64,000 nt of DNA from Polyangium jinanense (lineage in GTDB: Bacteria > Myxococcota_A > Polyangia > Polyangiales > Polyangiaceae). Positions 5,903-22,403 of the stretch are shown piece after piece. The translations under genes were made by a program, and so were the position numbers. Where the stretch lies: contig NZ_JAGTJK010000012.1 in assembly GCF_028435265.1 (NCBI RefSeq), positions 166,900-230,899 of the forward strand, in the 5' to 3' direction. Under the pieces are notes generated by a model. That model was not told the origin of the DNA, ran no database searches, and saw only the letters and a list, made by a program, of their open reading frames with translations. Each line of letters begins with the position of its first letter. Positions within the stretch are counted from its first letter, which is position 1.

Positions 5903-7912
5903 ATGGCAGCCGTTGAACCGATGGCATTGCCCCCGGATTTTAATCCCGAAACCCTCATGCGCAGCACGAGCACCGAGGTGGGGACCTTCCACGAAACTCG
6001 GCTGGCGGCCCGGCTGGCGGCCCAACTGCTTGCCCATGGTGCGGTCCAGGATATCGAGCTTTCGGAACGTATCCTGGTGGCTGTGCTGCGCTGTCAGGAA
6101 CGGGATGAGCGCGACCCCCACTACGGAAACTTCTACTGGATGCGGGAGGATGAGGTCGTCGAGGACCTGAATGCGGTCGAGTTCGTGCTGGAGGCTCTCA
6201 TTCCCATGATGCTCCAACATGGCGACCGGCTCTCGTCTGTGATGCATGACCGGGTGCTGGAGAGCGTTCGGCTGGGTCTGGAAGAGATCCGGCGGCTGGA
6301 TGTGCTGGTGGCTTATACGAACATTGCCGTTCTGGACATTCTCAATACCTGCCTGGGCGGCGAGTTGCTGGGCGAGACGGCGATCGCCGAACGGGGTTAT
6401 GACAAGCTGGTTTACTGGATCGCCTTTACCAACCGTTCAGGCCATCCTTTTGAGTACAACAGCCCGACCTATACCTCCATCACCCTGCGGGCGCTCAAAC
6501 AGTTGGCAGACCTGGTTCAGCACCGGGACACTCGCGTGCGGGCCAGGGCCATGGCTGCCCGGCTGGCGCTGAGCGTGGCCCTGCACCTTCACGCCGGCAC
6601 CGGCCGTTGGGCCGGTCCCCATAGCCGGGCCTACCATTCCACGGTGGTCTGTGAAACGCCGCCGGAGATCGAGCTGGTCCAGAGTTGGATCGCCGAGGGC
6701 ATTGTTCCTCCCTGGATCCAGGCGGTCCTGGAAGGTTTGCCCGCGGTCTTTCAGGTGAGCGAAACCGCGGAGCGCGATCGTGGATTCAGCTTCACCACCT
6801 ATCAGACCCCGACGTTTGCCCTGGGCGTGGCCAGCCAGCTCTACCAGGTTCAATCCAATGTCTGTTTGCTCCATTATCAGCGGCCGGGCGCAACCCGGCC
6901 CGGGGTTCTCTATACCCGTTATATCCTGGATGATAAGTGGTTCGGCGACTTCTACCATGCGACCGACCGGACCAAGCGTCGCAACCTGCTGGATGAAGGT
7001 CTCTTTTGGGGTGTCCAGCGCGAAAATCAGGCCATCGGTCTTTACACGCCGGCCAATATGACCGAAGGCAAGAGCGCCAAAGCCTGCCTGATCTGGTTGG
7101 ACCGGGCGCAGGTCGACGAGCTGTGGGTCGGCGAGCAGCGGGTCGAAAGCCTCCCCGTGCTCGTGTCGCCAGGGCAGGTGATCGTCGTTGGGAGTGGCGA
7201 TGTATATATGGCGGTGCGTCCTTTGACCCAGACCCCTCTGGGCCGGGAAACTCCCCTCGAACTCGTGGAACGGGACGGGGACTTGGTGCTCGAGTCGTAC
7301 AACTACCGGGGGCCATTCAAGCAATTCTGGGAGATGCACTGGCCCGGCTTCTTTTACGAGGGCCGACCCATTTGTTGTTTTTACCTGGAAGTCGCCGAGC
7401 GCCATGCCTATCCGGATGGCCGCGCCTTTGGACGGCAGGTGTTGCGTGGAACCGTGGAGGAGACGCTCGGGCCTCCCTTTACCTACGCAGCGGCAGGCGA
7501 ACGCGTCTATCGGGTTGCCTACCAGCGTGACGGCCAAGCGTTGGGCCTGGAGGTCGAGCTGATGGCCTGGAAACTCAAACGCCGCTGGACAGAAGCCGGT
7601 GAAATCGGCTGGCCCATGCTGGAAGCGCCTTCGGCCAGGCAGACGAATACCGGGCGGGTGGAGCTCGGTGAAGCCAGCCTGGTTTGTGGCCCTGAAGCAG
7701 CCTGGTTATGGGCGAGCCCGGAAAGCGGCCGCTGGGTTGCCGGCTATCTGGGCCTCACCCCGGCCCCCCTCACCCTGACGACGCCCCAGGGGCAGGTCGA
7801 GGTCACGGAGATGGGCACAGGTACCGTGGTCTGGGATCAGGGCCAGGTGACGGTGGAGGCTACCGGAGAGCCGGTGGTCAAGGTGTCCCTCCACCGCGAC
7901 GACCGTCAGTAA
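5903..7912 (+). CDS. hypothetical cytoplasmic protein (669 aa) on a lower-GC segment
   Basis: ATG at 5903 preceded by AAAGGAG RBS; no signal peptide; coding sequence is visibly less GC-rich (many A/T-ending codons) than its flanks; no motif I can name with confidence. Confidence 0.6.
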   Translation: MAAVEPMALPPDFNPETLMRSTSTEVGTFHETRLAARLAAQLLAHGAVQDIELSERILVAVLRCQERDERDPHYGNFYWMREDEVVEDLNAVEFVLEALIPMMLQHGDRLSSVMHDRVLESVRLGLEEIRRLDVLVAYTNIAVLDILNTCLGGELLGETAIAERGYDKLVYWIAFTNRSGHPFEYNSPTYTSITLRALKQLADLVQHRDTRVRARAMAARLALSVALHLHAGTGRWAGPHSRAYHSTVVCETPPEIELVQSWIAEGIVPPWIQAVLEGLPAVFQVSETAERDRGFSFTTYQTPTFALGVASQLYQVQSNVCLLHYQRPGATRPGVLYTRYILDDKWFGDFYHATDRTKRRNLLDEGLFWGVQRENQAIGLYTPANMTEGKSAKACLIWLDRAQVDELWVGEQRVESLPVLVSPGQVIVVGSGDVYMAVRPLTQTPLGRETPLELVERDGDLVLESYNYRGPFKQFWEMHWPGFFYEGRPICCFYLEVAERHAYPDGRAFGRQVLRGTVEETLGPPFTYAAAGERVYRVAYQRDGQALGLEVELMAWKLKRRWTEAGEIGWPMLEAPSARQTNTGRVELGEASLVCGPEAAWLWASPESGRWVAGYLGLTPAPLTLTTPQGQVEVTEMGTGTVVWDQGQVTVEATGEPVVKVSLHRDDRQ

Positions 7913-8520
7913 AAGAATGCCGCGCAGCAACCCTCTTGATTGTCACATTGGCCCGAAGGCTCCGTGCACGTCCCGAGCAGGGAGGTATTCGAGCGGCAGG
8001 CGCACTGCCACGTCCCGTCGGCGAGCCGCGCGCACGACGCGCGTAACTCGCCGACCCCGGCGCAGGTTGTCGCGCTCGTACATGCGTCGGGGGCGTCCGT
8101 GCCGCTTTGCCCCGTGCACGCGGCCGTATCGCTCCGCGTTTGTCCCTGCGCGCAGGCCCGGAACGCGTCCTCTTGGGCCTTGCAGCCGGCCGGCGGCACG
8201 ACCTGCGACGGCATACACGTGAAATCCGCTTTCTGATCCGCCCAGCAGCCGAGCAGGGTTTCGAACGCGCTTTCGCACGCCTCGCCCGCGTCGAGGTAGG
8301 CCGCGCAATCCTCCGCGCAGTCCGCCCACACGAAGCAGTTGATCTGCGAGACGTGATCGCACATCTCGCCGCACCGCGCCGGGGGCAGCTTCGGCTCGCC
8401 GCCGCCGCTGCCGCCCGTGCCGCTCGTCGTGTTGTTGGGAGGGGGCTCCTCCATGCTGCACGCGACGAGCCCCAAGAACGTCCCGAGGACGAGCATTTTC
8501 CAGCCGATACCGATTCGCAT
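7906..8520 (-). CDS. Cys-rich secreted lipoprotein, hypothetical
   Basis: MLVLGTFLGLVACS lipobox, Gly/Ser linker, then a domain with more than 20 Cys; 3' end overlaps the convergent 5903..7912 by 7 nt. Confidence 0.6.
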   Translation of the reverse strand: MRIGIGWKMLVLGTFLGLVACSMEEPPPNNTTSGTGGSGGGEPKLPPARCGEMCDHVSQINCFVWADCAEDCAAYLDAGEACESAFETLLGCWADQKADFTCMPSQVVPPAGCKAQEDAFRACAQGQTRSDTAACTGQSGTDAPDACTSATTCAGVGELRASCARLADGTWQCACRSNTSLLGTCTEPSGQCDNQEGCCAAFFY

Positions 8521-8565: not shown

Positions 8566-10071
8566 TCAGCGCTTTCGCAGCTCTTCCGGCACGCGGGCGA
8601 ACGTCTCCTCCGCGTCGGCAGCCGCCCATGCAACCGTGGCCACGGCCCCGACGACTTGATCGAGATCCTCCTTCGTGACCTTGTCGAGCGTGTCGTTCGC
8701 CGTGTGGTGCACGTCGAAGTACTTCGTCGCGTCCTGGTGCAGATCCACGATCGGCACGGCCGCGGCGTGCAGTGGGATGAGGTCGGCGCCGCCGTGCGCC
8801 GGGCCCTTGTCGTACTGGATCCCGAGCGGCGAGAGGAGGCTCGCGATCCGCTCGGTCACGGGCCGTGCGCCTTCCGCGACGAGGAACCGCGTCATGTGCA
8901 CGCGGCCCGCGCCGAGATCGATCTCGAGGGCGAGCTGGTGTTTGTCGAGCTCGGCCGCGTGGTCCTTGGCGTACGCGACCGCGCCGCGCAGGCCGTTCTC
9001 CTCGTTGGCGAAGAGCACCACGCGGATCGTGCGCCGCGGCCGCGCGCCGAGGCCGAGCACGAGCCGCGCGGCCTCGACGACGGCCGCGCATCCGGCGCCG
9101 TCGTCGATCGCGCCTTGCCCGAGGTCCCATGCGTCGAGGTGCGCGCCGAGCAGGACGATCTCGTCGGGCTTCTCGCGCCCCTTCACCTCGCCGATCACGT
9201 TCGCGCTCTCGGCGTCGGGCAAGAGCTTCGCGCCGAGCGAGAAGCTCACGCGCACGGGTTTGCCCTGACCGACCAGCCGCGCGATGAGCTCCGCGTCGGG
9301 CACGGAGACCGCGGCGGCCGGGATCTTGGGGACGTCCTTGTCGTAGACCATGCCGCCCGTGTGGGGAAGCCGGTCGTGGTCTGTGCCGATCGAGCGGAGG
9401 AGCACGCCGATCGCGCCTTTCCTCGCGGCGGCGATCGCGCCGCGGTACCGGATCCCGGCGACCTTGCCGTAGCCCGAGCCGTCTTTCGTGCGGGTCGTGG
9501 GGGCCGAGTAGAAGACGATCTTGCCCTTGACCTTGGCCTCGTCCATGGCGGCCATGGCGTCGAGCGACTCGACCATGACGATCTCGCCTTCGAGGCCCTT
9601 CGCGGGCGTCCCGATGCTCCCGCCGAGCGCGGCGATCGCGAGGGTGTGGGCGTACGGCGCGACGATCCGCCCGCTCTCGGCACCACGCTCCCAATGCGGG
9701 ACCATGACCTTTTCGGCGCGCACGTTTTCGAGCCCTTTTTCCTTCATGGTCCGGAGGGCCCAGGCGACGGCGGCCTTGTCCCCGAGCGACCCCGCGAGCC
9801 GCGGCCCGACCTCGTCGACGAGCGAACGAACCATGTCGTACGCATGCGAGTCGACCTGCGCGGCGAGCTGGAGTTTGTCCACGTTCGGATCGCGTGGGAC
9901 GGGGGCAGGCGCGGGAGCGGCAGCGGAGGCGGTCGCGGGCGCGGCGGCGGCAGCGGAGGCGGTCGCGGTCGCGGCGGCGGGCGCGGGGATGCGCTCGGGG
10001 GCCGGGGTTTCCGCGGCCGAGCAGGCCGCGAGCGAGAGCGTGGCGAGGAGGAGTGCGCTTCGGGCGTACAT
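8566..10071 (-). CDS. M28-family peptidase with PA domain (aminopeptidase), lipoprotein
   Basis: LLLATLSLAACSA lipobox; HLDAWDLGQGAIDDGAG and FANEENGLRGA metal-ligand and catalytic regions typical of M28 aminopeptidases. Confidence 0.85.
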   Translation of the reverse strand: MYARSALLLATLSLAACSAAETPAPERIPAPAAATATASAAAAAPATASAAAPAPAPVPRDPNVDKLQLAAQVDSHAYDMVRSLVDEVGPRLAGSLGDKAAVAWALRTMKEKGLENVRAEKVMVPHWERGAESGRIVAPYAHTLAIAALGGSIGTPAKGLEGEIVMVESLDAMAAMDEAKVKGKIVFYSAPTTRTKDGSGYGKVAGIRYRGAIAAARKGAIGVLLRSIGTDHDRLPHTGGMVYDKDVPKIPAAAVSVPDAELIARLVGQGKPVRVSFSLGAKLLPDAESANVIGEVKGREKPDEIVLLGAHLDAWDLGQGAIDDGAGCAAVVEAARLVLGLGARPRRTIRVVLFANEENGLRGAVAYAKDHAAELDKHQLALEIDLGAGRVHMTRFLVAEGARPVTERIASLLSPLGIQYDKGPAHGGADLIPLHAAAVPIVDLHQDATKYFDVHHTANDTLDKVTKEDLDQVVGAVATVAWAAADAEETFARVPEELRKR

Positions 10072-10234: not shown

Positions 10235-11050
10235 ATGCAGACCTCCCACGAACGCCCCGCCATCAAGCCTCGTGATCCCGGTCTCGACTTCGACGAGACC
10301 GTCCCGCGCCACTGGTTCGGGGGCAACGCGCTCGCGACCCACATCGCGAACGGCGTCAATCTGCTGTTCCCGGCGGGCGAGCGTTTTTTCGTGCGCAGCG
10401 TCCACCATTACCTCGACAAACTCGAAGACCCCGCGCTCCGCGCCCAGGTGAAAGGCTTCTTCGCCCAGGAGGGCCGCCACGCCCGCACGCACGAGCGCTT
10501 CTTCGAGCGTCTCGAAGAGCAGGGCTACGAGATCAAGCCGTTCCTCCGTGTCTACGAGAAGATCGCGTACGGCATCCTCGAGCCTGCGTTCCCGCCCGCG
10601 TTCCGCCTCGCCGTCACCGCGGCGGCCGAACATTTCACGGCCATCATGGCCGAGAACGCGCTCCGCGAGCGCTTCCTCGAGCGGGCCCACCCGGCGCTGC
10701 GCGACCTGCTCTTCTGGCACGCGGCTGAGGAGATCGAGCACCGCGCCGTCGCGTTCGACGTGCTCGGCACGGTGGCGCCGAGTTATGCCCTGCGCGTCGC
10801 CGGGATGGCCCTCGCCGCTTCCACGCTGGCGGCCTTCTGGATCGCCGGGACGCTCGTGCTCCTCGAACAGGACCGCCGCCGCGGCAACGTCGATCTTCGG
10901 GCCGAGTTGCGCAAGCTCCGCGAGCATCCGATCGGCCAGCGCGTGTTTTTGCGGGGCATCAAGTCCTATCTCCGTCGCGATTTCCATCCGCTCGAAGCCG
11001 AGATCGACGGCCTCGCGCGGCAATGGCTCGAAGCGAAGGGCATGGCATGA
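10235..11050 (+). CDS. ferritin-like diiron / predicted metal-dependent hydrolase family protein
   Basis: two ExxH motifs (QEGRHARTHE and AEEIEHRAV) plus additional conserved Glu on predicted helices; first gene of an overlap-coupled operon. Confidence 0.55.
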   Translation: MQTSHERPAIKPRDPGLDFDETVPRHWFGGNALATHIANGVNLLFPAGERFFVRSVHHYLDKLEDPALRAQVKGFFAQEGRHARTHERFFERLEEQGYEIKPFLRVYEKIAYGILEPAFPPAFRLAVTAAAEHFTAIMAENALRERFLERAHPALRDLLFWHAAEEIEHRAVAFDVLGTVAPSYALRVAGMALAASTLAAFWIAGTLVLLEQDRRRGNVDLRAELRKLREHPIGQRVFLRGIKSYLRRDFHPLEAEIDGLARQWLEAKGMA

Positions 11051-11694
11051 CGGTGCCCGTAGAATCCGGCCCGCGGATCGAACGCCGCGTCCTCTCGATC
11101 GACAGCGCGTACGACGAGGATACGGTCGAGATTCAGCGGATGCGGGATTCGCTGTATGCGGGCCTCGGCGGCCGCGTCGTGCGCTTCGGGCGCACGCTCA
11201 CCGAGCGCAGCACCGTCCTCGCCGCGCTTCGCGCCGCCGCGGAAGAGGGGCGACCTTATGCGGCGATCCTCGTGACCTCGCACGGCGAGCCGAGCCGGGT
11301 CCTCGACACGAATTCGCCCAAAGGCCTCCTCCTCGCCGACGATTTCCCCGCGGACGAGCTCAGGCTCTGGGCGGAGAACCGCGCCTTGCATTTCATGTGC
11401 TGCGATACGGGCGCGGGACCGCTTTTTTCGCGGCTCGCGGGGCTCGGGGCGCGTCTCGTCGTCGGGTTCGAGGGCAAACCGCGCTGGCATTCGCCGGAGG
11501 GGCGGCAGCGGTGGCGCGAGTTCGACGCCGAGACCGTGCGCGCGGTCGTCGAGACGCCCGATCCGAAGGTCGTAGGCGAGATTCGTACGCGCTGGCTCGG
11601 ACGCGTCGAGCAATGGCTGGTGACGGCGCCGCCGGGGTATGCGCAGGACCTGCGAGACATGCGGCAGACGCTCGGGACGATGGTGATTCTCTGA
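11047..11694 (+). CDS. caspase/CHAT-like protein (putative His-Cys dyad protease fold)
   Basis: ATGA overlap with upstream stop; hydrophobic strand plus His (AAILVTSHG), then about 40 aa later hydrophobic strand plus Cys plus small residues (LHFMCCDTGAG), the caspase-fold His/Cys dyad pattern. Confidence 0.5.
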   Translation: MTVPVESGPRIERRVLSIDSAYDEDTVEIQRMRDSLYAGLGGRVVRFGRTLTERSTVLAALRAAAEEGRPYAAILVTSHGEPSRVLDTNSPKGLLLADDFPADELRLWAENRALHFMCCDTGAGPLFSRLAGLGARLVVGFEGKPRWHSPEGRQRWREFDAETVRAVVETPDPKVVGEIRTRWLGRVEQWLVTAPPGYAQDLRDMRQTLGTMVIL

Positions 11695-13316
11695 TGCGAA
11701 TCGATGAGGCGACACGCGCGGCACGGTTTTTCGTCCTCGCAGCGGCGCTCGCAGCCCTGCCCGCCTTCGGCTGCGGGGGCACGCGTATGATCGGGAGCGG
11801 CCCGCACGCGTACGGGGAAGCCGCGCCCGAGGGGATCCGGTATCACCTGCCGAAGACGCTGATCGAGGTCAGCGTCCGGACCACGCTGACGTCGCGGAGG
11901 AGCGTTTCGTACGAGAAAAACGACGCGGGGCTGTACGAATTCAAGGTGAAGAGCCTGCCGTTCGACGTGGAGCAGAGCGCGGCGACGGTCACGGTCCTGC
12001 ACGTGCCGGACACGCGGGAGTTTTATGCGCTCCACCTCGAACCGGGCCGCACGTCCGACGATTCGCTGGCCGTCGAGACGTATGGCAATGGCTTGCTCAA
12101 GTCGATCAACATGGAGAGCGCGGGGCGCGAGGGGCAGGTCGTCGCCGATACGCTGGAAGCGGCGGCCACCATTGCGGGCTTTTTGGTCGGGCTCGCGGAT
12201 CGCGGGACCGAGGCCGCGCGGACGTTCGTTTGTGGAAAGCTCCGCGCCGATCCCTCCGCTGCAAAGTTCCCGTGCGAGGACCTCGAAGGTTTGCCCATGC
12301 AGACCTTGTATTTCCTCGCCGCGAATGCGGAGGGCCGAAAGCTCTTCTTGCGCGGACACGAGCTCGACGCCATCACGAGCGAGCGCCGGAAAACGAAGAA
12401 GGAGGTCGAGGACAAGATCGGCGCCGCGGACGCGAAGGAGCTCGCCGCGCTCGAATCGAAGCGCGCCTTGCTCGACGCCTCGCTCCGCGCGGCCCTCGAA
12501 GAACGCAAGGAGGTGACCTCCGCGTTCGAGGCCCGGCTCCAGGCGTTCGCGGAGGAGCAACGGTTCGCGCCGGAGTCGATCACGCGGGACGTCGTGCGGG
12601 TTTTCGACGTCGCGGAGATCCCCGAAGAAGCCACGCTCCCCGAGGGGACGAAATCGGCCGACGTGCCGGCGAAGCTCGCGAAGCACCCGGCCATGCTGGA
12701 GCTGTGGAACGCGACCCGTATCGCGATCGCCTTGACTCCGGACCGGGGCGCGCCGCCGAAAAAACCGACGAGCGCGGCGCCGGTCGAGGAGGAAGTCGCG
12801 GAAGGGCGCGTGTTTTATCGTCCGTCACGCGCGGCCACGCTGCGGCTGCTTTCGCAAGGGAAGATCGCGGATCCGGACGAAGGGCGGATCGGCGAATCGT
12901 ACGAGGGGATTCGTATCGTGGACGCGCGGATCATCGATGTGATGGATCCACGCGAGTCTCCGGCGACGGTCTCTTTTGATCCGGCTGCCTTTGCCAAGCG
13001 TAGGCTCGCGCTCGGGTTCGACACGAAAGGCCGCCTCGTCCGGCTGGAGCAGAGCAGCGCCTCGACCTTCCCGAGCGCGACCGGCGCGGTCGCGGACGGG
13101 CTCGCCAGCGCGAGCAGCGCGCTCGGGGTCGCGAGCATGGTCGACACCGCCGCGAAGGAGCCGGACCTCGCCACGGTCGATACGCTCGCCCAAATCGAGC
13201 GGCTGCGCAGGCAGCGGCAGACGCTCGATGCGCAGATTCAGGCGCTCGAGACGGTGAAAGATATTGAAAGGCAGAAACGCGTCCCATCGGTTGAACGGCC
13301 CGCGCCGTCGCGATAA
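11694..13316 (+). CDS. lipoprotein with central coiled-coil, hypothetical (540 aa)
   Basis: TGATG overlap with the upstream gene; MRIDEATRAARFFVLAAALAALPAFGCGG lipobox; the upstream 382 aa of the six-frame ORF is Arg/Ser-rich. Confidence 0.6.
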   Translation: MRIDEATRAARFFVLAAALAALPAFGCGGTRMIGSGPHAYGEAAPEGIRYHLPKTLIEVSVRTTLTSRRSVSYEKNDAGLYEFKVKSLPFDVEQSAATVTVLHVPDTREFYALHLEPGRTSDDSLAVETYGNGLLKSINMESAGREGQVVADTLEAAATIAGFLVGLADRGTEAARTFVCGKLRADPSAAKFPCEDLEGLPMQTLYFLAANAEGRKLFLRGHELDAITSERRKTKKEVEDKIGAADAKELAALESKRALLDASLRAALEERKEVTSAFEARLQAFAEEQRFAPESITRDVVRVFDVAEIPEEATLPEGTKSADVPAKLAKHPAMLELWNATRIAIALTPDRGAPPKKPTSAAPVEEEVAEGRVFYRPSRAATLRLLSQGKIADPDEGRIGESYEGIRIVDARIIDVMDPRESPATVSFDPAAFAKRRLALGFDTKGRLVRLEQSSASTFPSATGAVADGLASASSALGVASMVDTAAKEPDLATVDTLAQIERLRRQRQTLDAQIQALETVKDIERQKRVPSVERPAPSR

Positions 13317-13326
13317 GGGATGCCGG

Positions 13327-13824
13327 GTGAAGCCCTTCGTGATCATCCTGGCCGCCGTCACCTTTCTTGGATGCGGAGGCTCGGCCGAGCCCGAGCCCGC
13401 GACGCCCGAATCAACGTTGCCCTCCACGCCGCCGGTCGACGACGCGCCGGTGGAGCAATCCGAGTGGACGGGCGGCACCATCACCGGCCTCGTTCGTCTG
13501 GCCGAGAATGCAAAGCCGATCGAATCCCCCGATTTCGAGCTCATCCTGACGCTCTCCGGCGGCAACATCCGCAAGACGGAGCGCGTGGAGCTCGGGAAGA
13601 TCAAAAAGAAGCTCTCGGGGCCGGCGCCCTACGCGTTCGAGATTCAGGCCGATCAATCCAAGTTCGACCCGTTCGACAATTACACGATCAGCGGCTTCAT
13701 CGCCGCGCCGGACGGGAACTTCTGGTATTCGGTCAAGGATCTGCCGCGGGTCTACGTCAAAGGGCAAAAACCCGGCCCCGTCGAGGTCGAGGTGATCCCC
13801 GTGGATCCGAGGGCCGGCAAATAA
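13327..13824 (+). CDS. small lipoprotein, hypothetical (GTG start)
   Basis: GTG at 13327 gives (M)KPFVIILAAVTFLGCGGS lipobox; ATG-initiated N-terminus in the table is Arg-rich and overlaps the upstream gene. Confidence 0.5.
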   Translation: MKPFVIILAAVTFLGCGGSAEPEPATPESTLPSTPPVDDAPVEQSEWTGGTITGLVRLAENAKPIESPDFELILTLSGGNIRKTERVELGKIKKKLSGPAPYAFEIQADQSKFDPFDNYTISGFIAAPDGNFWYSVKDLPRVYVKGQKPGPVEVEVIPVDPRAGK

Positions 13825-13849: not shown

Positions 13850-15151
13850 TCACCGCTTCTTTTTCTTCTTTTTCTTCGGCGGAGGCGGCGGTCGCGTCTT
13901 GCCCGGCGCGGCGGGGACCCACGGGGCGCTCCGATCCACGGGCAGCGGCGTATCCGCGGGCAAGGCTTGCTCTCCGGCGCGCTTGATCGTGAACGACGAG
14001 CTCACGACGTTGTACATGTGGGCGCCGAAATTCGAAAGGTCGCCCCCGCCGGCGATGCCGATCGGAATGCAAAAGAGGCGCTTGCGTTCCTCGTCGAGGT
14101 CGCTGTACGGGATGAACCGGCCCTGATCGTCGCGCACGCCGCGCGTGTAGCCACCGCCGCCGCCCTGCGACATCCCGTCCTGGATCGCCTGCGCGAGCTG
14201 CTCGATGACCTCGTTCGCGCAGAGCGGCTTGATCTCGCCCTTCACCTTGCTGCCGGCCGGATACTGGACCTTCGATTCGATCTTGACGACGACCGTGACG
14301 CCCTGTTTGTCCGGGCCCATTTGCAAGGACCGCGCGGCAAGGCCGCTCTTCACGGCCTCCACGACGCCGGTCCAGTGGTTCGCATTGGCGTCCGTGGTGC
14401 TGACGAGGCGAACGCCCTCGACCTTGCCTTGCGCGTCGAGTTTGACCTCGAACGTGGCGCGGGCGTCCTTGACCGCCGAGCCGCGGACGGCGTTAGCAAT
14501 GGTGGAGGCGACCACGCCGGCCGCGGGGACGTCGATGCCGGTGGATTTGTCCTTGTTGTGGAGGGTGCCGGCGATGACGCGGCTCGCGATGTCGGAATCG
14601 ACGGGGCGCGGCGCCTCGATGGTGGTGGGCGCGGGCCGCGCCGCCGGCGCGCCGGGGACAACGCCCGGGACGGCCCAGACCGGCGAGCCCAGACCGGGAA
14701 GGGCGCCGACGACGGGCGCGGGCGCGGGCGCGCCGCCGTATTCGTCGACGGGAGGGCTCGGCGCGGCGGGCGTGGGCGCGGGAGCGGATTCGGGCGCGGG
14801 CGCGGAGGCGGATTCGGGAGCGGGAGCGGATTCGGGAGCGGGAGCGGATTCAGGGGCGGGAGCGGGCGCGGATTCGGGCGCCGGCGCAGGCACGGGCGCA
14901 GGTGCACGCACGGCCGCGCGGGCCGGTTCGGGCGTGGGCGCCTGCTCGAGCGCGGGAGCCGGCGCGCGCGTCACCGTGCCGGGCGGGCCTTCCTCCTCGA
15001 TATCGACCGTCGTATCTGCCGACGGCTCGACGCGGGGCGCGAGCACCTCGGCCCCCGGCGCCGGGCCACGCGGGGCGACGGCGAGGAAAAGCACGTGCGC
15101 GACGATCGCGACCGCGATCGCCCCAAGTTCGCGCCCCCGTTCCTTCGCCAC
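13850..15151 (-). CDS. membrane-anchored Pro/Ala-rich protein with a TonB-C-like C-terminal domain
   Basis: N-terminal TM (AIAVAIVAHVLFLAV), PAPESAPAP repeats, C-terminal globular region, poly-Lys tail. Confidence 0.55.
   Translation of the reverse strand: MAKERGRELGAIAVAIVAHVLFLAVAPRGPAPGAEVLAPRVEPSADTTVDIEEEGPPGTVTRAPAPALEQAPTPEPARAAVRAPAPVPAPAPESAPAPAPESAPAPESAPAPESASAPAPESAPAPTPAAPSPPVDEYGGAPAPAPVVGALPGLGSPVWAVPGVVPGAPAARPAPTTIEAPRPVDSDIASRVIAGTLHNKDKSTGIDVPAAGVVASTIANAVRGSAVKDARATFEVKLDAQGKVEGVRLVSTTDANANHWTGVVEAVKSGLAARSLQMGPDKQGVTVVVKIESKVQYPAGSKVKGEIKPLCANEVIEQLAQAIQDGMSQGGGGGYTRGVRDDQGRFIPYSDLDEERKRLFCIPIGIAGGGDLSNFGAHMYNVVSSSFTIKRAGEQALPADTPLPVDRSAPWVPAAPGKTRPPPPPKKKKKKKR
14800..14900. 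repeat. tandem repeat (GGAGCGGATTCGGGAGCG-like) encoding the APESAPAP repeats
   Basis: direct tandem units visible in the sequence inside 13850..15151. Confidence 0.7.
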
Positions 15152-16117: not shown

Positions 16118-16600
16118 ATGAAAGAAAAGCGCGGAGACAAGGACGTACGGGCCGCACAGGCAGAGGTGCTCGCGGCGCTCGCGAGGCGGCTCTCGAAAGG
16201 GGACACGCCGCTCCCCGCGGATCTCATGGCCAAGATCACCGCGGAGCTCGAGCTGCGCATCGACGACGAGGCGATCTCCGCGGCCTGGGCCGAGCAAGGC
16301 AACGAGGAGCCGACGTCCTGGCGAGGCAACGCAGCGCGCGCGAGCCGGCGCGGGCGGGGGAGGGACGTTCGCGACATCGAGCTCTTCGCGCGCGCAGCGC
16401 GAGACCTCGAAGCACTCGAGGCAGCCGAGCGGGAGGAAGTGTCGCTGGAGATCGACGCGCTCGCCTTCGATCCGGTGCCGCGCGGGGTGATGGCGCTTCA
16501 CGGTCGAAAGGATGGACACCTGCAAAACCGCATGGGCATGCGGCGCTTGCTTTACAAGGTGCAGGGGATGGTGGTGACCGTCGTGGCGATCACTGGCTAG
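16118..16600 (+). CDS. protein with RelE/ParE-like C-terminal toxin fold and a roughly 90-aa N-terminal extension
   Basis: C-terminus FDPVPRGVMALHGRKDGHLQNRMGMRRLLYKVQGMVVTVVAI fits the RelE/ParE pattern; GC3-rich codon usage; no separate antitoxin ORF upstream. Confidence 0.3.
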   Translation: MKEKRGDKDVRAAQAEVLAALARRLSKGDTPLPADLMAKITAELELRIDDEAISAAWAEQGNEEPTSWRGNAARASRRGRGRDVRDIELFARAARDLEALEAAEREEVSLEIDALAFDPVPRGVMALHGRKDGHLQNRMGMRRLLYKVQGMVVTVVAITG

Positions 16601-17891
16601 CCCGCCAGCACTCCTCCTCTAGCATCCACGCTTCGAGGAGCCCGGGCTGTTCGCCGAAACCCCGATAGTACTCGTCATTCAGGCATTTCACCAGGGCTTT
16701 TCGCTCGGACACGGAGAGGTCGGTCACGCCGAGCGGCATCTTCTGGTGGTTCACGACATAAAAGCTCACCAGCGTCCCGCCCTGGGGCTGCAAACGGATC
16801 CCGCTCGGATAATTCAGCTCCCCGCGTAGAAGGCCATCGTGGCAATGGGCGCATTGCATGGCCTCTCCGAGCCGTGCGAGCCGCTCCGGTTCGACGAGTC
16901 CGGCGGAGCAGGCGGCGAGGAATTCCGGTGTTCGCAGCGGCGAGGTCCGGGGACCCATCGGCGGCCCGTAGTCCGAGCGCGTGAATCCGTCGAGGTCGAT
17001 GGCGCCATGACTCGCCATCCGCGCGTTCACCGCCCTGAGCTTCTCGCCGAAGCGAGTTTCGTCGAATTGGAGGGGATCGGGCGTGATGGGAAGGGTGGCC
17101 TGCTTGTGACAAGCGTAGCAGTTCTCGGCGATGCCGGTTTCGTCGAGTCGTGTGCCGATCTCGATCCTGCCGCCGTCTCGCTTTCGCCAGAAATCCTTCA
17201 ATCTCGCGCGCGGCGTTTTCAGCGTCATGCCCGTTCCCGCCTCCGTTTTCTGGACGGCCACGACCGAGACGCCCTTGGGCAGCTCGCCGGCGGGATCCTG
17301 CTGGAGCCCGAACTGGATGTACTGGTCGAAGTCTTTGCGCGGAACGTAGACGAAAAACCGGCCGAGCGAACGCGTGCCGTCGGGGGTGGGCAGATGTTGT
17401 GACGTGTAGATGAAAGCGATCCATTCGAGTCGTGGGTCGGAGATCGTCTTGTTGATCCCATCGATGTACTGGAGCGCGCTCGTGAGGGATGCGTCGTCGT
17501 TCTTGTCGAGCCACCGTAGAAATGGCTGGTCCTTCAGCTCCGCCGGTAGCTCCAGCATCTCGGGGTACGGCATTTCGGAGAAGTATTGTTCGTCCGGAAT
17601 CGATGCGCCCATCTTATGGCCGTTCATCTGTTTGTCCTGCGTCACCGCTTCGAAGAAGCTCGAAAAGTTGCTCATGCATGTTCGGGCGGTGGGAAGGGCC
17701 TCGAGCTGCCGTTTGCAGCGCCTGAGCGTCGCGCCGATGTCGTCGAGGATCTCGCCTTCGAGATCACTGGCAAAGAAGGCGTGCGTCGTTCGCACGTGCC
17801 AGTCGCGAAAGCCGGGAAGGTCGGTGGGGCAGGGCGGGACCACCAGAGGGCTCGCCGCCAGGTAGAGGATTCCCCAGGGTCGCGCGCGCAT
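16590..17891 (-). CDS. secreted di-heme c-type cytochrome family protein
   Basis: ATG at 17891 (MRARPWGILYLAASPLVVP signal peptide); two CxxCH motifs (CYACH, CAHCH); upstream 135 aa of the ORF is Arg-rich; 3' end overlaps convergent 16118..16600 by 11 nt. Confidence 0.7.
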   Translation of the reverse strand: MRARPWGILYLAASPLVVPPCPTDLPGFRDWHVRTTHAFFASDLEGEILDDIGATLRRCKRQLEALPTARTCMSNFSSFFEAVTQDKQMNGHKMGASIPDEQYFSEMPYPEMLELPAELKDQPFLRWLDKNDDASLTSALQYIDGINKTISDPRLEWIAFIYTSQHLPTPDGTRSLGRFFVYVPRKDFDQYIQFGLQQDPAGELPKGVSVVAVQKTEAGTGMTLKTPRARLKDFWRKRDGGRIEIGTRLDETGIAENCYACHKQATLPITPDPLQFDETRFGEKLRAVNARMASHGAIDLDGFTRSDYGPPMGPRTSPLRTPEFLAACSAGLVEPERLARLGEAMQCAHCHDGLLRGELNYPSGIRLQPQGGTLVSFYVVNHQKMPLGVTDLSVSERKALVKCLNDEYYRGFGEQPGLLEAWMLEEECWRASQ

Positions 17892-19476: not shown

Positions 19477-21450
19477 ATGGTGATGTTCTCGCCCACGGAG
19501 GCCTTGCGGCCCAACTTGCACGTGGAGGTCGCGTCGGGGGACACGCTCGATGTGCGCAAGTTCCAGGTCACGGAGCGCGTGTCGGATCTCTTCGAGGTCC
19601 GCCTCGTGGCGCTCTCGCCGAACCCCGAGATCGACTTCGAGGCCGTGCTCGGGCGGGAGGCGACGTTCACGCTCTCCCGCGACCGGCTCCTCGCCTCCGC
19701 GTACCGCACCTGGGGCGGGATCTGCCATCACATCCAGCAGATCGAGTCGGAGGAGGCCGGGCTCTCCACGTACGAGCTCGTGATCGTGCCGAAGCTCTGG
19801 TTCCTCACGCAGCGGCGCAACCACCGCATGTTCCAGCAGCTTTCGGACCTCGACGTCGTGCTGCAGGTCCTCCGCGAGTGGGGCATCGAGCCCGTGCAGA
19901 AGGTCGACGCGGCCGCCTACAAGAAACGCAAATATCGGGTGCAGTACGGCGAGAGCGATTACGCTTTCGTCTGCCGGCTGCTCGAGGATGCGGGGATCAC
20001 ATTTTACTTCGACCAGCAGGGCGAGGACACGGTGCTCGTCCTTCATGACGCACCGCAGGACAATCCGCCGCGTGAGCCCGCCGTCCGGTTCGTGGACAAA
20101 CCGATGGTGGACAAGGATCTCGAGTTCGTGACCGAGGTGCGTGTCGGGCAACGCACGCGGCCGGGCAAGTACACGATCTTCGACCACGATTACCGGCGGC
20201 CGGCGAACTACAAGCTCATGGGCACGCACGCCGAGGGCGAGGCCTTCGAGCAGCAGATGGAGCGGTTTCATTACGTGCCGGGCGCGTTCCTCTTCCGCAC
20301 CGACGGGCGCGAGCCGACGCCGAGCGCCGACGACAAAGGCGCGGCGCGTCACGACGAGTCGGAGGCCAAGCGCATCGCGCGGATCCGCCTGGAGGCGAAG
20401 CGCGTCGAGGCCCGCAAGGCCACGTTCCGCACGAACCTCGTCGAGCTCCGGCCCGGGACCGTGATGCGTGTCGTCGATCATCCGCGGCGCGAGTTGTCGA
20501 ATCGGCTGCTCGTGGTGCATTCGACCTACGAGGGCACGTCGTTCGGCGAGTGGGTCCACAAGCTCGAGACGCGCAGCGCCGAGATCCACTACCGCCCGCC
20601 GCTCGTCACGCCGAAGCCAAAGGTGAGCGGCGTGGAGAGCGCGACGGTCGTCGGGCCCGCGGGCGAGGAGATTCATACCGACGAGTTCGGCCGCGTGCGG
20701 GTCCATTTCCACTGGGACCGCGAGAGCCAGATGAACCAGGATAGCTCATGCTGGATCCACGTGAGCCAATCGTGGGGCGGCGCGGGCTACGGCGGCGTGC
20801 AGCTTCCGCGCATCGGCCAGGAGGTGATCGTCGATTTCCTCGGCGGTGATCCGGACCGGCCCATCATCGTGGGGCGCGTGTTCACGAATCTGCAAAAGGT
20901 GCCGTATCCGCTGCCGGCGAACAAGACGCAGAGCGGGCTCCGATCGGCGTCGTCGCCGGCGACGGGCGGGTACAACGAGCTCATGTTCGAGGACGCCGCG
21001 GGCCGCGAGCTCATGCGGCTCCAGGCCGAGCGCGACTTCACGGGCCTCGTGAAGCACGATATGCGGTTCAACATCCAGAACGACCGCACGCACAACGTCG
21101 GCAACAACGACACGGAGTCCGTGGTCGGCGAGCAGTCGGTGAAGGTCGCGAAAAAACGCACGGTGCGGGTCAAGCTCGATCAGCAGCACCAGGTCGGGGA
21201 AAACATCCTCACGCAGGCGGTGAACGGCACGGCGACGCACATGTCGAACAAGGCGCTCACGCTCTTCAGCCCGGAGAAGATCGTGCTCTCCACGGCGCCG
21301 AACTCGTTCATCCTGATCACGCCGGGCAAGATCACGATCGAGGCCCCGCTCGTGCACATCAACCCGGGCGATACGTCCGTTCCCAATCCGCCGCAGCCCG
21401 ACGCGATCGGGGACGCCACGACCATCACCGGATACATCGGAGCGCCATGA
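19477..21450 (+). CDS. vgrG: type VI secretion spike protein VgrG (TssI), short form without a C-terminal effector extension
   Basis: ATG at 19477 with GAGGAGAG RBS (upstream 512 aa of the six-frame ORF is Arg-rich and antisense to the malic enzyme gene); gp27-like N-terminus; gp5 OB/spike motifs [11 protein letters not shown] and [24 protein letters not shown]. Confidence 0.9.
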   Translation: [657 protein letters not shown]

Positions 21451-22403
21451 GGGTTCGCAAAGTACGCGTCGACGGATTCCGGGGTTTGCCGGACCAGGAG
21501 TTTTCCCTGACCGATCCGCGCACGGACAGCGCCCACGAGCTCGTGGTCGTGACCGGCCCGCGCGCGAGCGGCAAGACGAGCTTCCTCGAAGCGATCGTCG
21601 CGGCGAAGGAGCAGGTTGGCCCGTATGGCCCCGCCGCGCCGCCGTCGAGTTTCCTGCGCCCCGGCGTGAGCACGGCGAAGGTGCGCGTCGAATGGGAGCT
21701 CTCGAATGGGGAGCGAGATCGGTACGGCACGGGCAAACGCGCATTCGTGAGCGAGTCGATCTTCGGCGACCTCGTGGTCGATCCGCCGGAGCCGGATCCG
21801 GCGCTCGCGGCGTTGCTCTCGGAGTACATCCCGGAGCCGGCGTTCGGGAAGGTCGAGTATTTCCACGCCTCGCGGAGGCTGCCCCTCGGGTCGACGATCG
21901 ATCTGTCGAAATCGGCCGGAGACAGCCTCGATCGTATGGTGAGGCTCGGCCGCGACGACACGAAGTACGCGGGGCTCGTGCGGTTCATCGTGGAGGCGGG
22001 GCTCGGGCTCGACGTGGACGCCGAGGGCAAACCAAAGCCAAAGGGACGCATCAAAAAGGCGTTCGAGGCGCTTTGCCCGACGAAGGAACTCGGAGGGCTC
22101 TACAAGGCGGGGGACGCGATGCTGCCGGTGTTCCTCGACGGACGGCGCAGGGCGTACAGCATCGCGCAGCTCTCGGACAGCGAGCTCGACGCGCTGCTCT
22201 TCGCGACGACATTCGTGCGGGCGGGCATCGGTCAATCGATCGTGCTCGTCGACACGCCGGAGAAGCACCTCGGCGACGTGGAAGCGCGCGAGTTCGTGAA
22301 GGCGCTCGCGACGCTCGGCGCGGACAACCAGCTCATCGTGGCGACGCAATCGGCGGCGCTCGTGTCGAGCGTGCAGGCGGATCAAGTGATCCGGCTCGGG
22401 TGA
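21447..22403 (+). CDS. ABC-class (AAA_21/AAA_15-like) ATPase coupled to vgrG
   Basis: ATGA overlap with the vgrG stop; Walker A VVTGPRASGKTSFLEAI; signature-like LSDSELDALLFA; Walker B/D-loop SIVLVDTPEKHLGD resembling the LIDEPENHLHP motif; 318 aa, no fused nuclease domain. Confidence 0.7.
   Translation: MRVRKVRVDGFRGLPDQEFSLTDPRTDSAHELVVVTGPRASGKTSFLEAIVAAKEQVGPYGPAAPPSSFLRPGVSTAKVRVEWELSNGERDRYGTGKRAFVSESIFGDLVVDPPEPDPALAALLSEYIPEPAFGKVEYFHASRRLPLGSTIDLSKSAGDSLDRMVRLGRDDTKYAGLVRFIVEAGLGLDVDAEGKPKPKGRIKKAFEALCPTKELGGLYKAGDAMLPVFLDGRRRAYSIAQLSDSELDALLFATTFVRAGIGQSIVLVDTPEKHLGDVEAREFVKALATLGADNQLIVATQSAALVSSVQADQVIRLG

What the first reader, a model, noticed from the sequence alone, without database searches (positions are those of the whole stretch)
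10235..13824. Overlap-coupled operon: ferritin-like diiron protein, caspase/CHAT-like protein, two lipoproteins
Genes 10235, 11047, 11694 and 13327 are joined by ATGA and TGATG overlaps (the last gap is 10 bp). The first has two ExxH motifs typical of diiron-carboxylate proteins. The second shows the caspase-fold signature (hydrophobic strand-His-Gly, then hydrophobic strand-Cys-small). The others are a 540-aa coiled-coil lipoprotein and a 165-aa lipoprotein. A cytoplasmic caspase-like protease co-translated with a diiron enzyme and exported lipoproteins is not a system I recognise.
Basis: partly seen in the sequence, partly recalled or inferred. Interest (0 to 1): 0.6.

Follow-up and report, generated by a model that had tools for sequence, protein, structure and literature searches.

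The report
Caspase-fold protease paired with lipoprotein
The four overlapping genes are real, but the conserved unit is an uncharacterised two-gene cassette, a small caspase/CHAT-like cysteine protease followed by a large lipoprotein, that recurs in distantly related bacteria; the iron-protein gene and the small lipoprotein gene joined it only in Polyangium.

Summary

The four-gene block is not the conserved unit. Gene 2 followed by gene 3 occurs in every one of about 17 distinct loci with a dyad-bearing gene 2 and readable downstream DNA. These come from Polyangium, other Polyangiaceae, Sorangium, a Planctomycetota MAG, Pseudoalteromonas and metagenomes, in unrelated neighbourhoods. Gene 1 is adjacent only in Polyangium (7 of 7 genomes). 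Gene 4 is present in 4 of those 7. Both dyad-less homologues lack the lipoprotein partner.

So this is a rare, apparently self-contained protease-lipoprotein cassette inside a lineage-specific operon. Its mechanism is unknown. My best guess (about 0.3) is an effector-immunity-like pair. A membrane-linked intracellular proteolytic switch is nearly as likely. It is a new variant of a known kind, of moderate interest.

The parts
10235..11050 (+). g1: 271-aa PF10118 (Metal_hydrol) ferritin-like protein. ExxH motifs lie at 10469-10480 (EGRH) and 10730-10741 (EIEH). It is a Polyangium-specific addition to the operon.
   Evidence: Pfam PF10118 E 4.1e-73, 246.6 bits against a cut-off of 33.2; AurF 8.6e-6 and COQ7 1.6e-3, both below cut-off. 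Motifs. Adjacent to g2 in 7 of 7 Polyangium loci and in 0 of about 10 non-Polyangium loci.
11047..11694 (+). g2: 215-aa leaderless single-domain clan-CD (caspase/CHAT-fold) cysteine peptidase of a new, rare family. The ATGA overlap with g1 is at 11047-11050.
11281..11286 (+). Codons for His79-Gly80, the predicted catalytic His directly after strand 73-78.
   Evidence: H79 is present in 40/42 and G80 in 41/42 representatives. The profile aligns SSHG onto the caspase SHG motif. Strand positions.
11401..11403 (+). Codon for Cys119, the predicted catalytic Cys directly after strand 113-118. The neighbouring Cys118 is not conserved.
   Evidence: C119 is present in 40/42, and the two exceptions are the same two sequences that lack His79. 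C118 is Ala in 21/42. C119 aligns with the Cys of the caspase QACRG motif.
11694..13316 (+). g3: 540-aa lipoprotein and obligate partner of g2. The TGATG overlap is at 11692-11696. The lipobox Cys27 is at 11772-11774. A DUF4831-like N-terminal region covers aa 46-146. A conserved small-residue hydrophobic segment lies at aa 149-167 (12138-12194). Coiled-coil-like stretches lie at 12360-12575 and 13143-13286.
   Evidence: Cys27 is invariant in the family alignment. DUF4831 is hit below threshold in 6/10 members, best E 2e-4. Hydropathy. Helical, charged stretches. The only PDB profile hits (all E 0.025 or weaker, not significant) fall in the C-terminal helical stretch, several on coiled-coil proteins. 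Homologues sit directly downstream of g2 in all loci examined.
13327..13824 (+). g4: 165-aa small lipoprotein (GTG start, lipobox Cys16 at 13372-13374), 10 nt after g3. It is an accessory gene of a Polyangium subclade.
   Evidence: Weak YscW hit, E 0.027, below cut-off. No PDB relative. Present at 90-95% identity in Polyangium spp. 15x6, 6x1 and y55x31. Absent from P. fumosum, P. mundeleinium, P. spumosum and all non-Polyangium loci.

Best explanation
SHOWN. The region is one translationally coupled operon of Polyangium jinanense, built around a self-contained two-gene cassette.

The first cassette gene (g2) encodes a minimal, leaderless cysteine peptidase of about 215 aa with the caspase/CHAT (clan CD) fold and a His79-Cys119 dyad. 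It belongs to a rare, unnamed family that is nearest in structure to CHAT domains and nearest in sequence to DUF4347, the family of the T6SS cargo protease Tce1.

The second cassette gene (g3) encodes a 460-710-aa lipoprotein of a second unnamed family. It has a DUF4831-like N-terminal domain, a conserved small-residue hydrophobic segment and coiled-coil-like regions of variable length.

The two genes always occur together, in this order and 0-38 nt apart, in at least three phyla and in unrelated neighbourhoods. Their divergence is tightly correlated. g1, a PF10118 ferritin-like diiron-type protein, was joined upstream only in the genus Polyangium. g4, a small lipoprotein, was added downstream only in a subclade. 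Neither is part of the core.

INFERRED. g2 is an active protease, and g3 is needed only when g2 is active. The most likely logic (about 0.3) is effector-immunity-like. In this model the leaderless protease acts outside the producer's cytoplasm, possibly delivered by a contact-dependent machine as Tce1/Tce2 are. The exported lipoprotein then binds or neutralises it in the producer's own envelope.

Nearly as likely (about 0.25) is that g2 stays cytoplasmic and g3 is a membrane-linked sensor or substrate of an intracellular proteolytic switch.

For: Dyad: H79 and C119 each follow a beta-strand. Each is present in 40/42 representatives, and both are absent from the same two sequences. The sub-threshold profile-versus-PDB hits are almost all caspases, and the best of them (6pdq_A) aligns SSHG on SHG and C119 on the QACR cysteine.

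Family: there are 41 clusters among 1.84 billion representatives, one a false positive; the rest are stand-alone proteins of about 205-225 aa apart from a few shorter, apparently partial sequences and one 278-aa call. Seven of 42 touch DUF4347 just under its cut-off, best 22.7 against 24.6 bits.

Pairing: g3 homologues, all with a lipobox, lie directly downstream of g2 in every locus checked. These are the window, L001, L002, L013-L016 (Polyangium), L018 (Polyangiaceae MAG), L003, L004 (partial), L005 (Sorangium), L006 (Planctomycetota MAG), L007-9 (Pseudoalteromonas-type), L010, L011, L022 and L023. Flanking genes differ in each lineage.

Co-divergence: the pairwise identity matrices of g2 and g3 correlate at r = 0.97, Mantel p about 2e-4.

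Dyad-less homologues: the Sorangium So ce375 homologue (H79L, C119G) has no g3 within 7 kb. P0023 is followed by a non-lipobox ORF.

Tce1 and Tce2 are leaderless putative cysteine-protease cargo of Hcp3 (PMC13323088). A vgrG lies 5.6 kb downstream in the window.

Against: No catalytic activity has been shown.

Against the effector-immunity reading:
- g3 is far larger and more uniformly conserved than typical immunity proteins.
- No hcp, vgrG or PAAR gene lies within 6-8 kb of the cassette outside Polyangium.
- In Polyangium the vgrG is separated from the cassette by five genes of mixed orientation.
- None of the 41 clusters shows g2 fused to a delivery domain.
- Tce1 and Tce2 have no immunity genes.

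The dyad-loss/partner-loss correlation rests on two sequences, one of them from a short and possibly chimeric contig.
Confidence: 0.6

Rival explanations
1. Intracellular proteolytic switch. g2 stays in the cytoplasm, like the other bacterial CHAT and caspase-like proteases of conflict systems. g3 is anchored in the inner membrane by its lipid and by the hydrophobic segment at aa 149-167. Its small N-terminal domain faces the periplasm and its coiled-coil C-terminal two-thirds face the cytoplasm. There g3 senses an envelope event and activates g2, or is cleaved by it.
For: The structurally closest proteins are intracellular, signal-activated CHAT proteases: SAVED-CHAT, Craspase and DdvA. A second hydrophobic, small-residue-rich segment is conserved at the same position in all g3 homologues, with KD 1.4-1.7. 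This would solve the compartment problem. [quoted passage not shown] The cassette has a patchy, mobile-looking distribution. Two distant cassettes have a TM plus coiled-coil protein just upstream.
Against: The uncharged run in the segment is only 13-20 residues, and it is interrupted by Arg or Lys in two homologues (inspection). The gammaproteobacterial homologue has Ser at +2 after the lipid Cys, which by the Lol sorting rule (general knowledge) suggests outer-membrane targeting. No PADLOC hit. No phage or plasmid copies. No sensor or NTPase partner is consistently present.
Confidence: 0.25
2. One reading: all four genes form one functional system in which the diiron enzyme, the protease and both lipoproteins act on a common substrate or pathway.
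For: All four are overlap-coupled or 10 nt apart on one strand. The g1-g2-g3 order and overlaps are kept in all 7 Polyangium genomes. g1 is the most conserved of the genes within the genus, at 90-99% identity.
Against: g1 is absent next to the cassette in every non-Polyangium locus. g4 is absent from P. fumosum, P. mundeleinium and P. spumosum. PF10118 is a broad family that occurs without g2 or g3 (general knowledge of the Pfam family; not surveyed here).
Confidence: 0.1
3. Envelope-building pair. g3 is a structural, periplasm-spanning lipoprotein. g2 is a dedicated cytoplasmic maturation or quality-control peptidase, or a transpeptidase as in legumain and GPI8, that acts on g3 or on a shared client before export.
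Against: The cassette is very rare and patchy (41 clusters), which does not suit a housekeeping envelope function. Sec substrates are exported unfolded, so there is no obvious point at which a cytoplasmic protease could act specifically.
Confidence: 0.1

Closest known systems
CHAT-domain proteases (Pfam PF12770): SAVED-CHAT (PDB 8tl0), Craspase TPR-CHAT/Csx29 (7y83, 7zoq), the DdvA anti-sigma factor of Myxococcus (8rot) and separase
   Different: No Pfam CHAT hit for any of the 42 family members, even at E <= 10. g2 is a bare protease domain of 215 aa, without SAVED, TPR or other sensor domains. Its partner is a lipoprotein, not a nucleotide-signal or CRISPR component.
DUF4347 (PF14252) / Tce1 (PA0256) and Tce2 (PA2372), putative cysteine-protease cargo effectors of the P. 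aeruginosa H3-T6SS
   Different: The window protein itself does not hit DUF4347. Tce1 and Tce2 sit in or near T6SS clusters and have no adjacent immunity or lipoprotein gene. The g2 cassette is not next to T6SS genes outside Polyangium.
[quoted passage not shown] 2020, PMC7159879)
   Same: A two-gene unit that joins a caspase-superfamily peptidase to a membrane-associated constant partner whose hydrophobic helix is rich in small residues. Its distribution is patchy and favours multicellular bacteria.
   Different: The gene order is reversed, with the partner 5' of the peptidase. EACC1 is a small single-TM protein, not a lipoprotein of about 550 aa. That caspase carries variable C-terminal effector domains, whereas g2 has none. 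Homology between EACC1 and g3 was not tested.
T6SS effector-immunity pairs with periplasmic or lipoprotein immunity proteins (for example Tae/Tai-type Cys-His amidases; general knowledge, not tested here)
   Same: A leaderless small Cys-His hydrolase followed immediately by a gene for an exported protein. Accessory and patchy distribution. In the two dyad-less homologues found here the exported partner is also missing.
   Different: Immunity proteins are usually 100-300 aa and fast-evolving. g3 is 460-710 aa, multi-domain and conserved along its whole length. There is no consistent linkage to hcp, vgrG or PAAR.
PF10118 'predicted metal-dependent hydrolase' and the AurF/COQ7 ferritin-like diiron oxygenases (for g1)
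   Same: Full-length PF10118 match. The E...ExxH...E...ExxH pattern is typical of diiron carboxylate four-helix bundles.
   Different: AurF and COQ7 score below their cut-offs. No solved relative was detectable by sequence. No function is known for PF10118.

Membership tests
Clan CD (caspase-haemoglobinase fold) cysteine peptidases | Alpha/beta/alpha sandwich with the caspase-type central sheet | tested here: met
Clan CD (caspase-haemoglobinase fold) cysteine peptidases | Catalytic His (usually His-Gly) after one strand and catalytic Cys after the next, with His before Cys in the sequence | tested here: met
   H79-G80 follows strand 73-78 and C119 follows strand 113-118. Each is present in 40/42 and both are absent from the same two sequences. 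They align with the caspase SHG and QACRG motifs.
Clan CD (caspase-haemoglobinase fold) cysteine peptidases | Peptide-bond cleavage dependent on the dyad | not testable with these tools
   This needs enzyme assays with H79A and C119A controls.
Pfam CHAT (PF12770) | Match to the family HMM at or above the gathering score | tested here: not met
   No CHAT hit for the window protein, nor for any of the 42 family members at E <= 10.
Pfam Peptidase_C14 (caspases, metacaspases) | Match to the family HMM at or above the gathering score | tested here: not met
   No hit. There are only sub-threshold profile hits to caspase chains, E 0.17-1.
Pfam DUF4347 (PF14252; Tce1-like) | Match to the family HMM at or above 24.6 bits | tested here: not met
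T6SS cargo effector with immunity protein | Genetic linkage to hcp, vgrG, PAAR or adaptor genes | tested here: not met
   A vgrG lies 5.6 kb away, beyond five genes of mixed orientation, in the window and in P. mundeleinium. There is none within 6-8 kb in the Sorangium, Planctomycetota, Pseudoalteromonas, L010 or L011 loci.
T6SS cargo effector with immunity protein | T6SS-dependent secretion of the effector and neutralisation by the downstream gene product | not testable with these tools
   This needs secretome and toxicity-rescue experiments.
Pfam Metal_hydrol (PF10118), for g1 | Full-length HMM match above the gathering score | tested here: met
   E 4.1e-73, 246.6 bits against 33.2, covering profile positions 1-244 of 247.
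Ferritin-like diiron carboxylate proteins, for g1 | Two ExxH motifs plus two further carboxylates on a four-helix bundle, and bound diiron | tested here: inconclusive
   ExxH at 79-82 and 166-169, with candidate Glu residues at 49 and 132/140. AurF and COQ7 hits are below cut-off. Neither the fold nor the metal content was tested.
Bacterial lipoproteins, for g3 and g4 | Signal peptide ending in a lipobox with an invariant Cys | tested here: met
   g3 Cys27 is invariant across 10 aligned homologues and a lipobox is present in all further homologues. g4 has TFLG-C16. Lipid modification itself cannot be tested here.
Known anti-phage defence systems (PADLOC-DB 2.0) | HMM match of any component | tested here: not met
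   No significant hit for g1-g4.

The most novel reading that the evidence does not exclude
The g2-g3 cassette is a previously undescribed, horizontally mobile two-component system. In it, a minimal caspase-fold protease and a lipid-anchored, coiled-coil envelope protein form a trans-envelope switch. Either the lipoprotein crosses the inner membrane through its conserved small-residue hydrophobic segment and is the sensor or substrate of the protease, or it is an unusually large dedicated inhibitor of a secreted protease toxin. In both cases this would be a new type of caspase-based conflict system that needs no nucleotide second messenger, NTPase or CRISPR partner.
Probability: 0.3. Interest if true: 0.7.

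Novelty: new variant of a known kind. Interest (0 to 1): 0.5.

Why it matters
Bacterial caspase and CHAT proteases have recently emerged as executioners in CBASS, type III CRISPR, gasdermin and Thoeris-type immunity, and as T6SS cargo. Each of these cases has a recognisable sensor or delivery partner.

Here a bare protease domain is locked to a large lipoprotein of unknown fold, across three phyla. That pairing is not covered by Pfam, NCBIfam or PADLOC, nor by the papers I could find.

If the pair is an antagonism or defence module, it adds a new partner class to caspase-like systems. It would also offer a compact two-gene unit that is easy to test in a heterologous host. If it is merely envelope housekeeping in a few lineages, its significance is small.

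The work also gives a practical correction: the diiron gene is a genus-specific neighbour and should not be used to infer the cassette's chemistry.

Tried and rejected
Searches that found nothing or did not help:
- Pfam, NCBIfam and PADLOC on g2 gave nothing.
- A 5-sequence profile against PDB sequences gave only chance hits.
- The first AF2 run, with 5 close orthologues, gave pLDDT 77 (the other four models 54-59), and its Foldseek result was ambiguous. It was superseded by the 42-sequence model.
- The afdb50 library was unavailable.
- The search for related loci with the g2 alignments failed because no conserved stretch was found.
- The third homologous-protein run, using the alignment, added nothing.
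- phmmer of the DUF4347-nearest member against PDB did not recover Tce1.
- Viral contigs and plasmids hold no g2 or g3 relatives.
- The promoter and terminator scan gave nothing above chance.
- Literature searches on DUF4347, PF10118, DUF4831 and caspase-plus-lipoprotein returned no description of this pair.

Ideas considered and rejected:
- P0049 (1241 aa) is a BNR-repeat/KAP NTPase false positive.
- Tat 'hitch-hiking' of g2 with g3: the g3 signal peptides have no consistent twin-arginine motif (inspection).
- A bacterial gasdermin-protease pair: g3 has a true Sec/lipobox leader and no gasdermin hit.
- A myxobacterial SitA/SitI outer-membrane-exchange toxin pair: the cassette also occurs in Planctomycetota and Gammaproteobacteria, and g2 keeps an enzyme dyad.


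Full report

Yes. The window comes from Polyangium jinanense, because g2 is 100% identical to an NCBI protein of that species. On the + strand lie four ORFs:
- g1, 10235-11050, 271 aa.
- g2, 11047-11694, 215 aa.
- g3, 11694-13316, 540 aa.
- g4, 13327-13824, 165 aa, with a GTG start.

The junctions are ATGA, TGATG and a 10-nt gap. GC3 is 0.84-0.87 in these frames, which marks them as the coding frames among the many spurious ORFs of a 68% GC genome. The gene calls for P. spumosum, P. mundeleinium and Polyangium sp. y55x31 show the same overlaps. The coupling is therefore conserved and not accidental. A consensus scan found no internal promoter or terminator above chance.

**2. What the four genes are**

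*g1.* This is a full-length member of PF10118, 'predicted metal-dependent hydrolase' (E 4e-73). It has sub-threshold hits to the diiron oxygenases AurF and COQ7. ExxH motifs lie at residues 79-82 and 166-169.

*g2.* It has no hit in Pfam, NCBIfam or PADLOC. A word-indexed search found only five Polyangium orthologues. The exhaustive profile search found 41 clusters among 1.84 billion representatives. One of these is a BNR-repeat false positive. The others are stand-alone proteins of about 205-225 aa without signal peptides, apart from a few shorter, apparently partial sequences and one 278-aa call that probably starts too far upstream.

First, His79-Gly80 and Cys119 sit immediately after consecutive beta-strands, which is the clan-CD arrangement. 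Each is kept in 40 of 42 representatives, and the two sequences that lack His79 are exactly the two that lack Cys119.

Second, the family profile's sub-threshold PDB hits (E 0.17-1) are almost all caspases. The best of them (6pdq_A) places SSHG on the caspase SHG motif and the Cys on the caspase QACR cysteine.

Seven distant members touch Pfam DUF4347 just below its cut-off. None touches CHAT or Peptidase_C14. g2 is thus a new, small family of the clan CD fold. It is closest in structure to CHAT and closest in sequence to DUF4347.

*g3.* This is a lipoprotein. Cys27 is invariant in an alignment that spans 22-91% identity, and every further homologue has a lipobox. Its features are:
- A sub-threshold DUF4831-like N-terminal region (6 of 10 members).
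- A conserved hydrophobic segment rich in small residues at aa 149-167.
- Two helix-prone, charged stretches.
- No significant PDB profile hits; the weak ones (E 0.025 or worse) fall in the C-terminal helical stretch, several on coiled-coil proteins.
- A C-terminal coiled-coil tail that varies from about 40 to more than 200 residues among homologues.

*g4.* This is a small lipoprotein with only a weak YscW-like hit and no PDB relative.

**3. What is conserved**

This is where the interpretation changes. Within Polyangium, g1-g2-g3 is present in all seven genomes seen: P. jinanense, sp. 15x6, sp. 6x1, sp. y55x31, P. fumosum, P. mundeleinium and P. spumosum. g4 is present in only four of them.

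Outside the genus, g1 and g4 are never adjacent to the cassette. A g2 homologue is nevertheless always followed, 1-38 nt later, by a g3 homologue. This holds in the following loci:
- A Polyangiaceae MAG (L018).
- Sorangium So ce341 (L005).
- A Planctomycetota MAG (L006).
- Pseudoalteromonas-type genomes (L007-L009).
- Six metagenome contigs (L003, L004 partial, L010, L011, L022, L023).

The flanking genes are unrelated from lineage to lineage. They include acetyl-CoA hydrolase, an LPG-synthase TM protein, an M23 peptidase, GlmS and a GST. No T6SS gene lies within 6-8 kb.

The pairwise identity matrices of g2 and g3 across 12 loci correlate at r = 0.97 (Mantel p about 2e-4). This is consistent with the two genes being inherited and transferred as a unit.

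The two dyad-less homologues lack the partner. The Sorangium So ce375 protein (H79L, C119G) has no g3 relative within 7 kb. P0023 is followed by a secreted ORF without a lipobox. That contig is short and its gene may be chimeric.

No copies were found in viral contigs or plasmids.

**4. How it most likely works**

What is shown:
- g2 is a clan-CD protease-fold protein with an intact, selectively maintained dyad.
- g3 is an exported, lipid-anchored partner.
- g2 and g3 are strictly co-located and translationally coupled.
- The cassette is rare and phyletically patchy.

What is inferred: g2 is catalytically active, and g3 is needed only alongside an active g2.

The puzzle is the compartment. g2 has no leader, yet its partner is exported. 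I considered several readings.

(a) Effector-immunity-like pair, about 0.3. A leaderless Cys-His hydrolase followed by a gene for an exported protein is the classic layout for periplasm-acting contact-dependent effectors. The nearest sequence family, DUF4347, contains Tce1. Tce1 and the roughly 190-aa Tce2 are leaderless putative cysteine-protease cargo carried inside Hcp3 rings (PMC13323088). Loss of the dyad together with loss of the partner is what a toxin-immunity relationship predicts. A vgrG lies 5.6 kb downstream in the window.

Several points count against this reading. g3 is much larger and more evenly conserved than usual immunity proteins. T6SS genes are not linked to the cassette outside Polyangium. 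No g2 homologue is fused to a delivery domain. Tce1 and Tce2 have no immunity genes.

(b) Intracellular switch, about 0.25. The structurally closest proteins are cytoplasmic, signal-activated CHAT proteases. If the hydrophobic segment at 149-167 is a transmembrane helix, two-thirds of g3 would be cytoplasmic and accessible to g2. This would resemble the membrane-associated EACC1-caspase two-gene systems (PMC7159879). However, the segment is short (13-20 uncharged residues) and is interrupted by charges in two homologues.

Their evidence is given in the rival-explanations section.

**5. Comparison with what is known, and novelty**

g2 passes the structural and dyad tests for clan CD. It fails the HMM membership tests for CHAT, Peptidase_C14 and DUF4347. 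g1 is a member of PF10118. g3 and g4 belong to no curated family.

I found no description of a protease-lipoprotein cassette of this kind in the libraries or papers searched. I therefore rate it a new variant of a known kind: a caspase-fold protease system with a new partner class. It is not categorically new, because the mechanism is unresolved and the fold is familiar.

**6. Limits**

- Both AF2 jobs went to g2, so g3 has no model. Its topology is the main open point.
- There were no model coordinates to measure the His-Cys distance or to inspect the S1 pocket. The suggestion that the invariant Asp160 sets a basic P1 preference is speculation.
- The dyad-loss/partner-loss correlation has n = 2.
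- The locus count of about 17 includes seven closely related Polyangium genomes.

**7. Verdict**

The interesting object is the two-gene core at 11047-13316, not the four-gene block. Interest is 0.5.

Noticed in passing
window 16593-17750 (- strand): A 386-aa ORF with two CxxCH haem-binding-type motifs (CYACH, CAHCH) and no Pfam hit. It may be a dihaem cytochrome c-like protein.
   Followed up: partly
window 13850-15151 (- strand): A 433-aa Pro/Ala-rich protein with tandem APAPES-type repeats and a C-terminal PPPPPKKKKKKKR tail, with no Pfam hit. It converges on g4 with only 25 nt between the stop codons. The run of T on the + strand that looks like a terminator tail is in fact its poly-Lys codons.
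   Followed up: partly
window 19480-22403 (+ strand): An orphan VgrG (Phage_GPD, Phage_base_V and Gp5 C-terminal domains) overlaps the start of an AAA_21/AbiEii-like ATPase gene. It lies 5.6 kb downstream of the operon, and the same arrangement occurs in P. mundeleinium (L002 14509-16648).
   Followed up: partly
L019 7001-7645 (Sorangium sp. So ce375): A g2 paralogue that has lost both catalytic residues (H79L, C119G) and stands alone, with no g3-like gene within 7 kb. It may be a pseudo-protease remnant of the cassette.
   Followed up: yes
L010 1679-2377 and L011 527-1564: In two distant cassettes the gene just upstream of g2 encodes a protein with TM helices and a C-terminal coiled coil (232 and 345 aa). 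In L010 it overlaps g2 by 8 nt. The two are not detectably homologous to each other and have no Pfam family. They may be a third, inner-membrane component in some lineages.
   Followed up: partly
L007 7730-8008 (Pseudoalteromonas-type genome): A 92-aa ORF overlapping the start of g2 carries a P-loop (GSSGDGKS) and has weak NB-ARC, AAA and Zeta-toxin hits. It looks like a truncated NTPase fragment.
   Followed up: no
window 12138-12194 (g3 aa 149-167): A hydrophobic segment rich in Ala, Gly, Ser and Val is conserved at the same position in every g3 homologue. Whether it is a transmembrane helix, a membrane-inserting element or a buried helix is unresolved.
   Followed up: partly
window 7906-8520 (- strand) and L013 8234-8662: Cys-rich small lipoprotein-like or secreted proteins (204 aa and 142 aa) with no Pfam family flank the operon in Polyangium. 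The 204-aa gene and an M28 peptidase lipoprotein (8566-10071) are divergent from g1 in all Polyangium loci examined.
   Followed up: no
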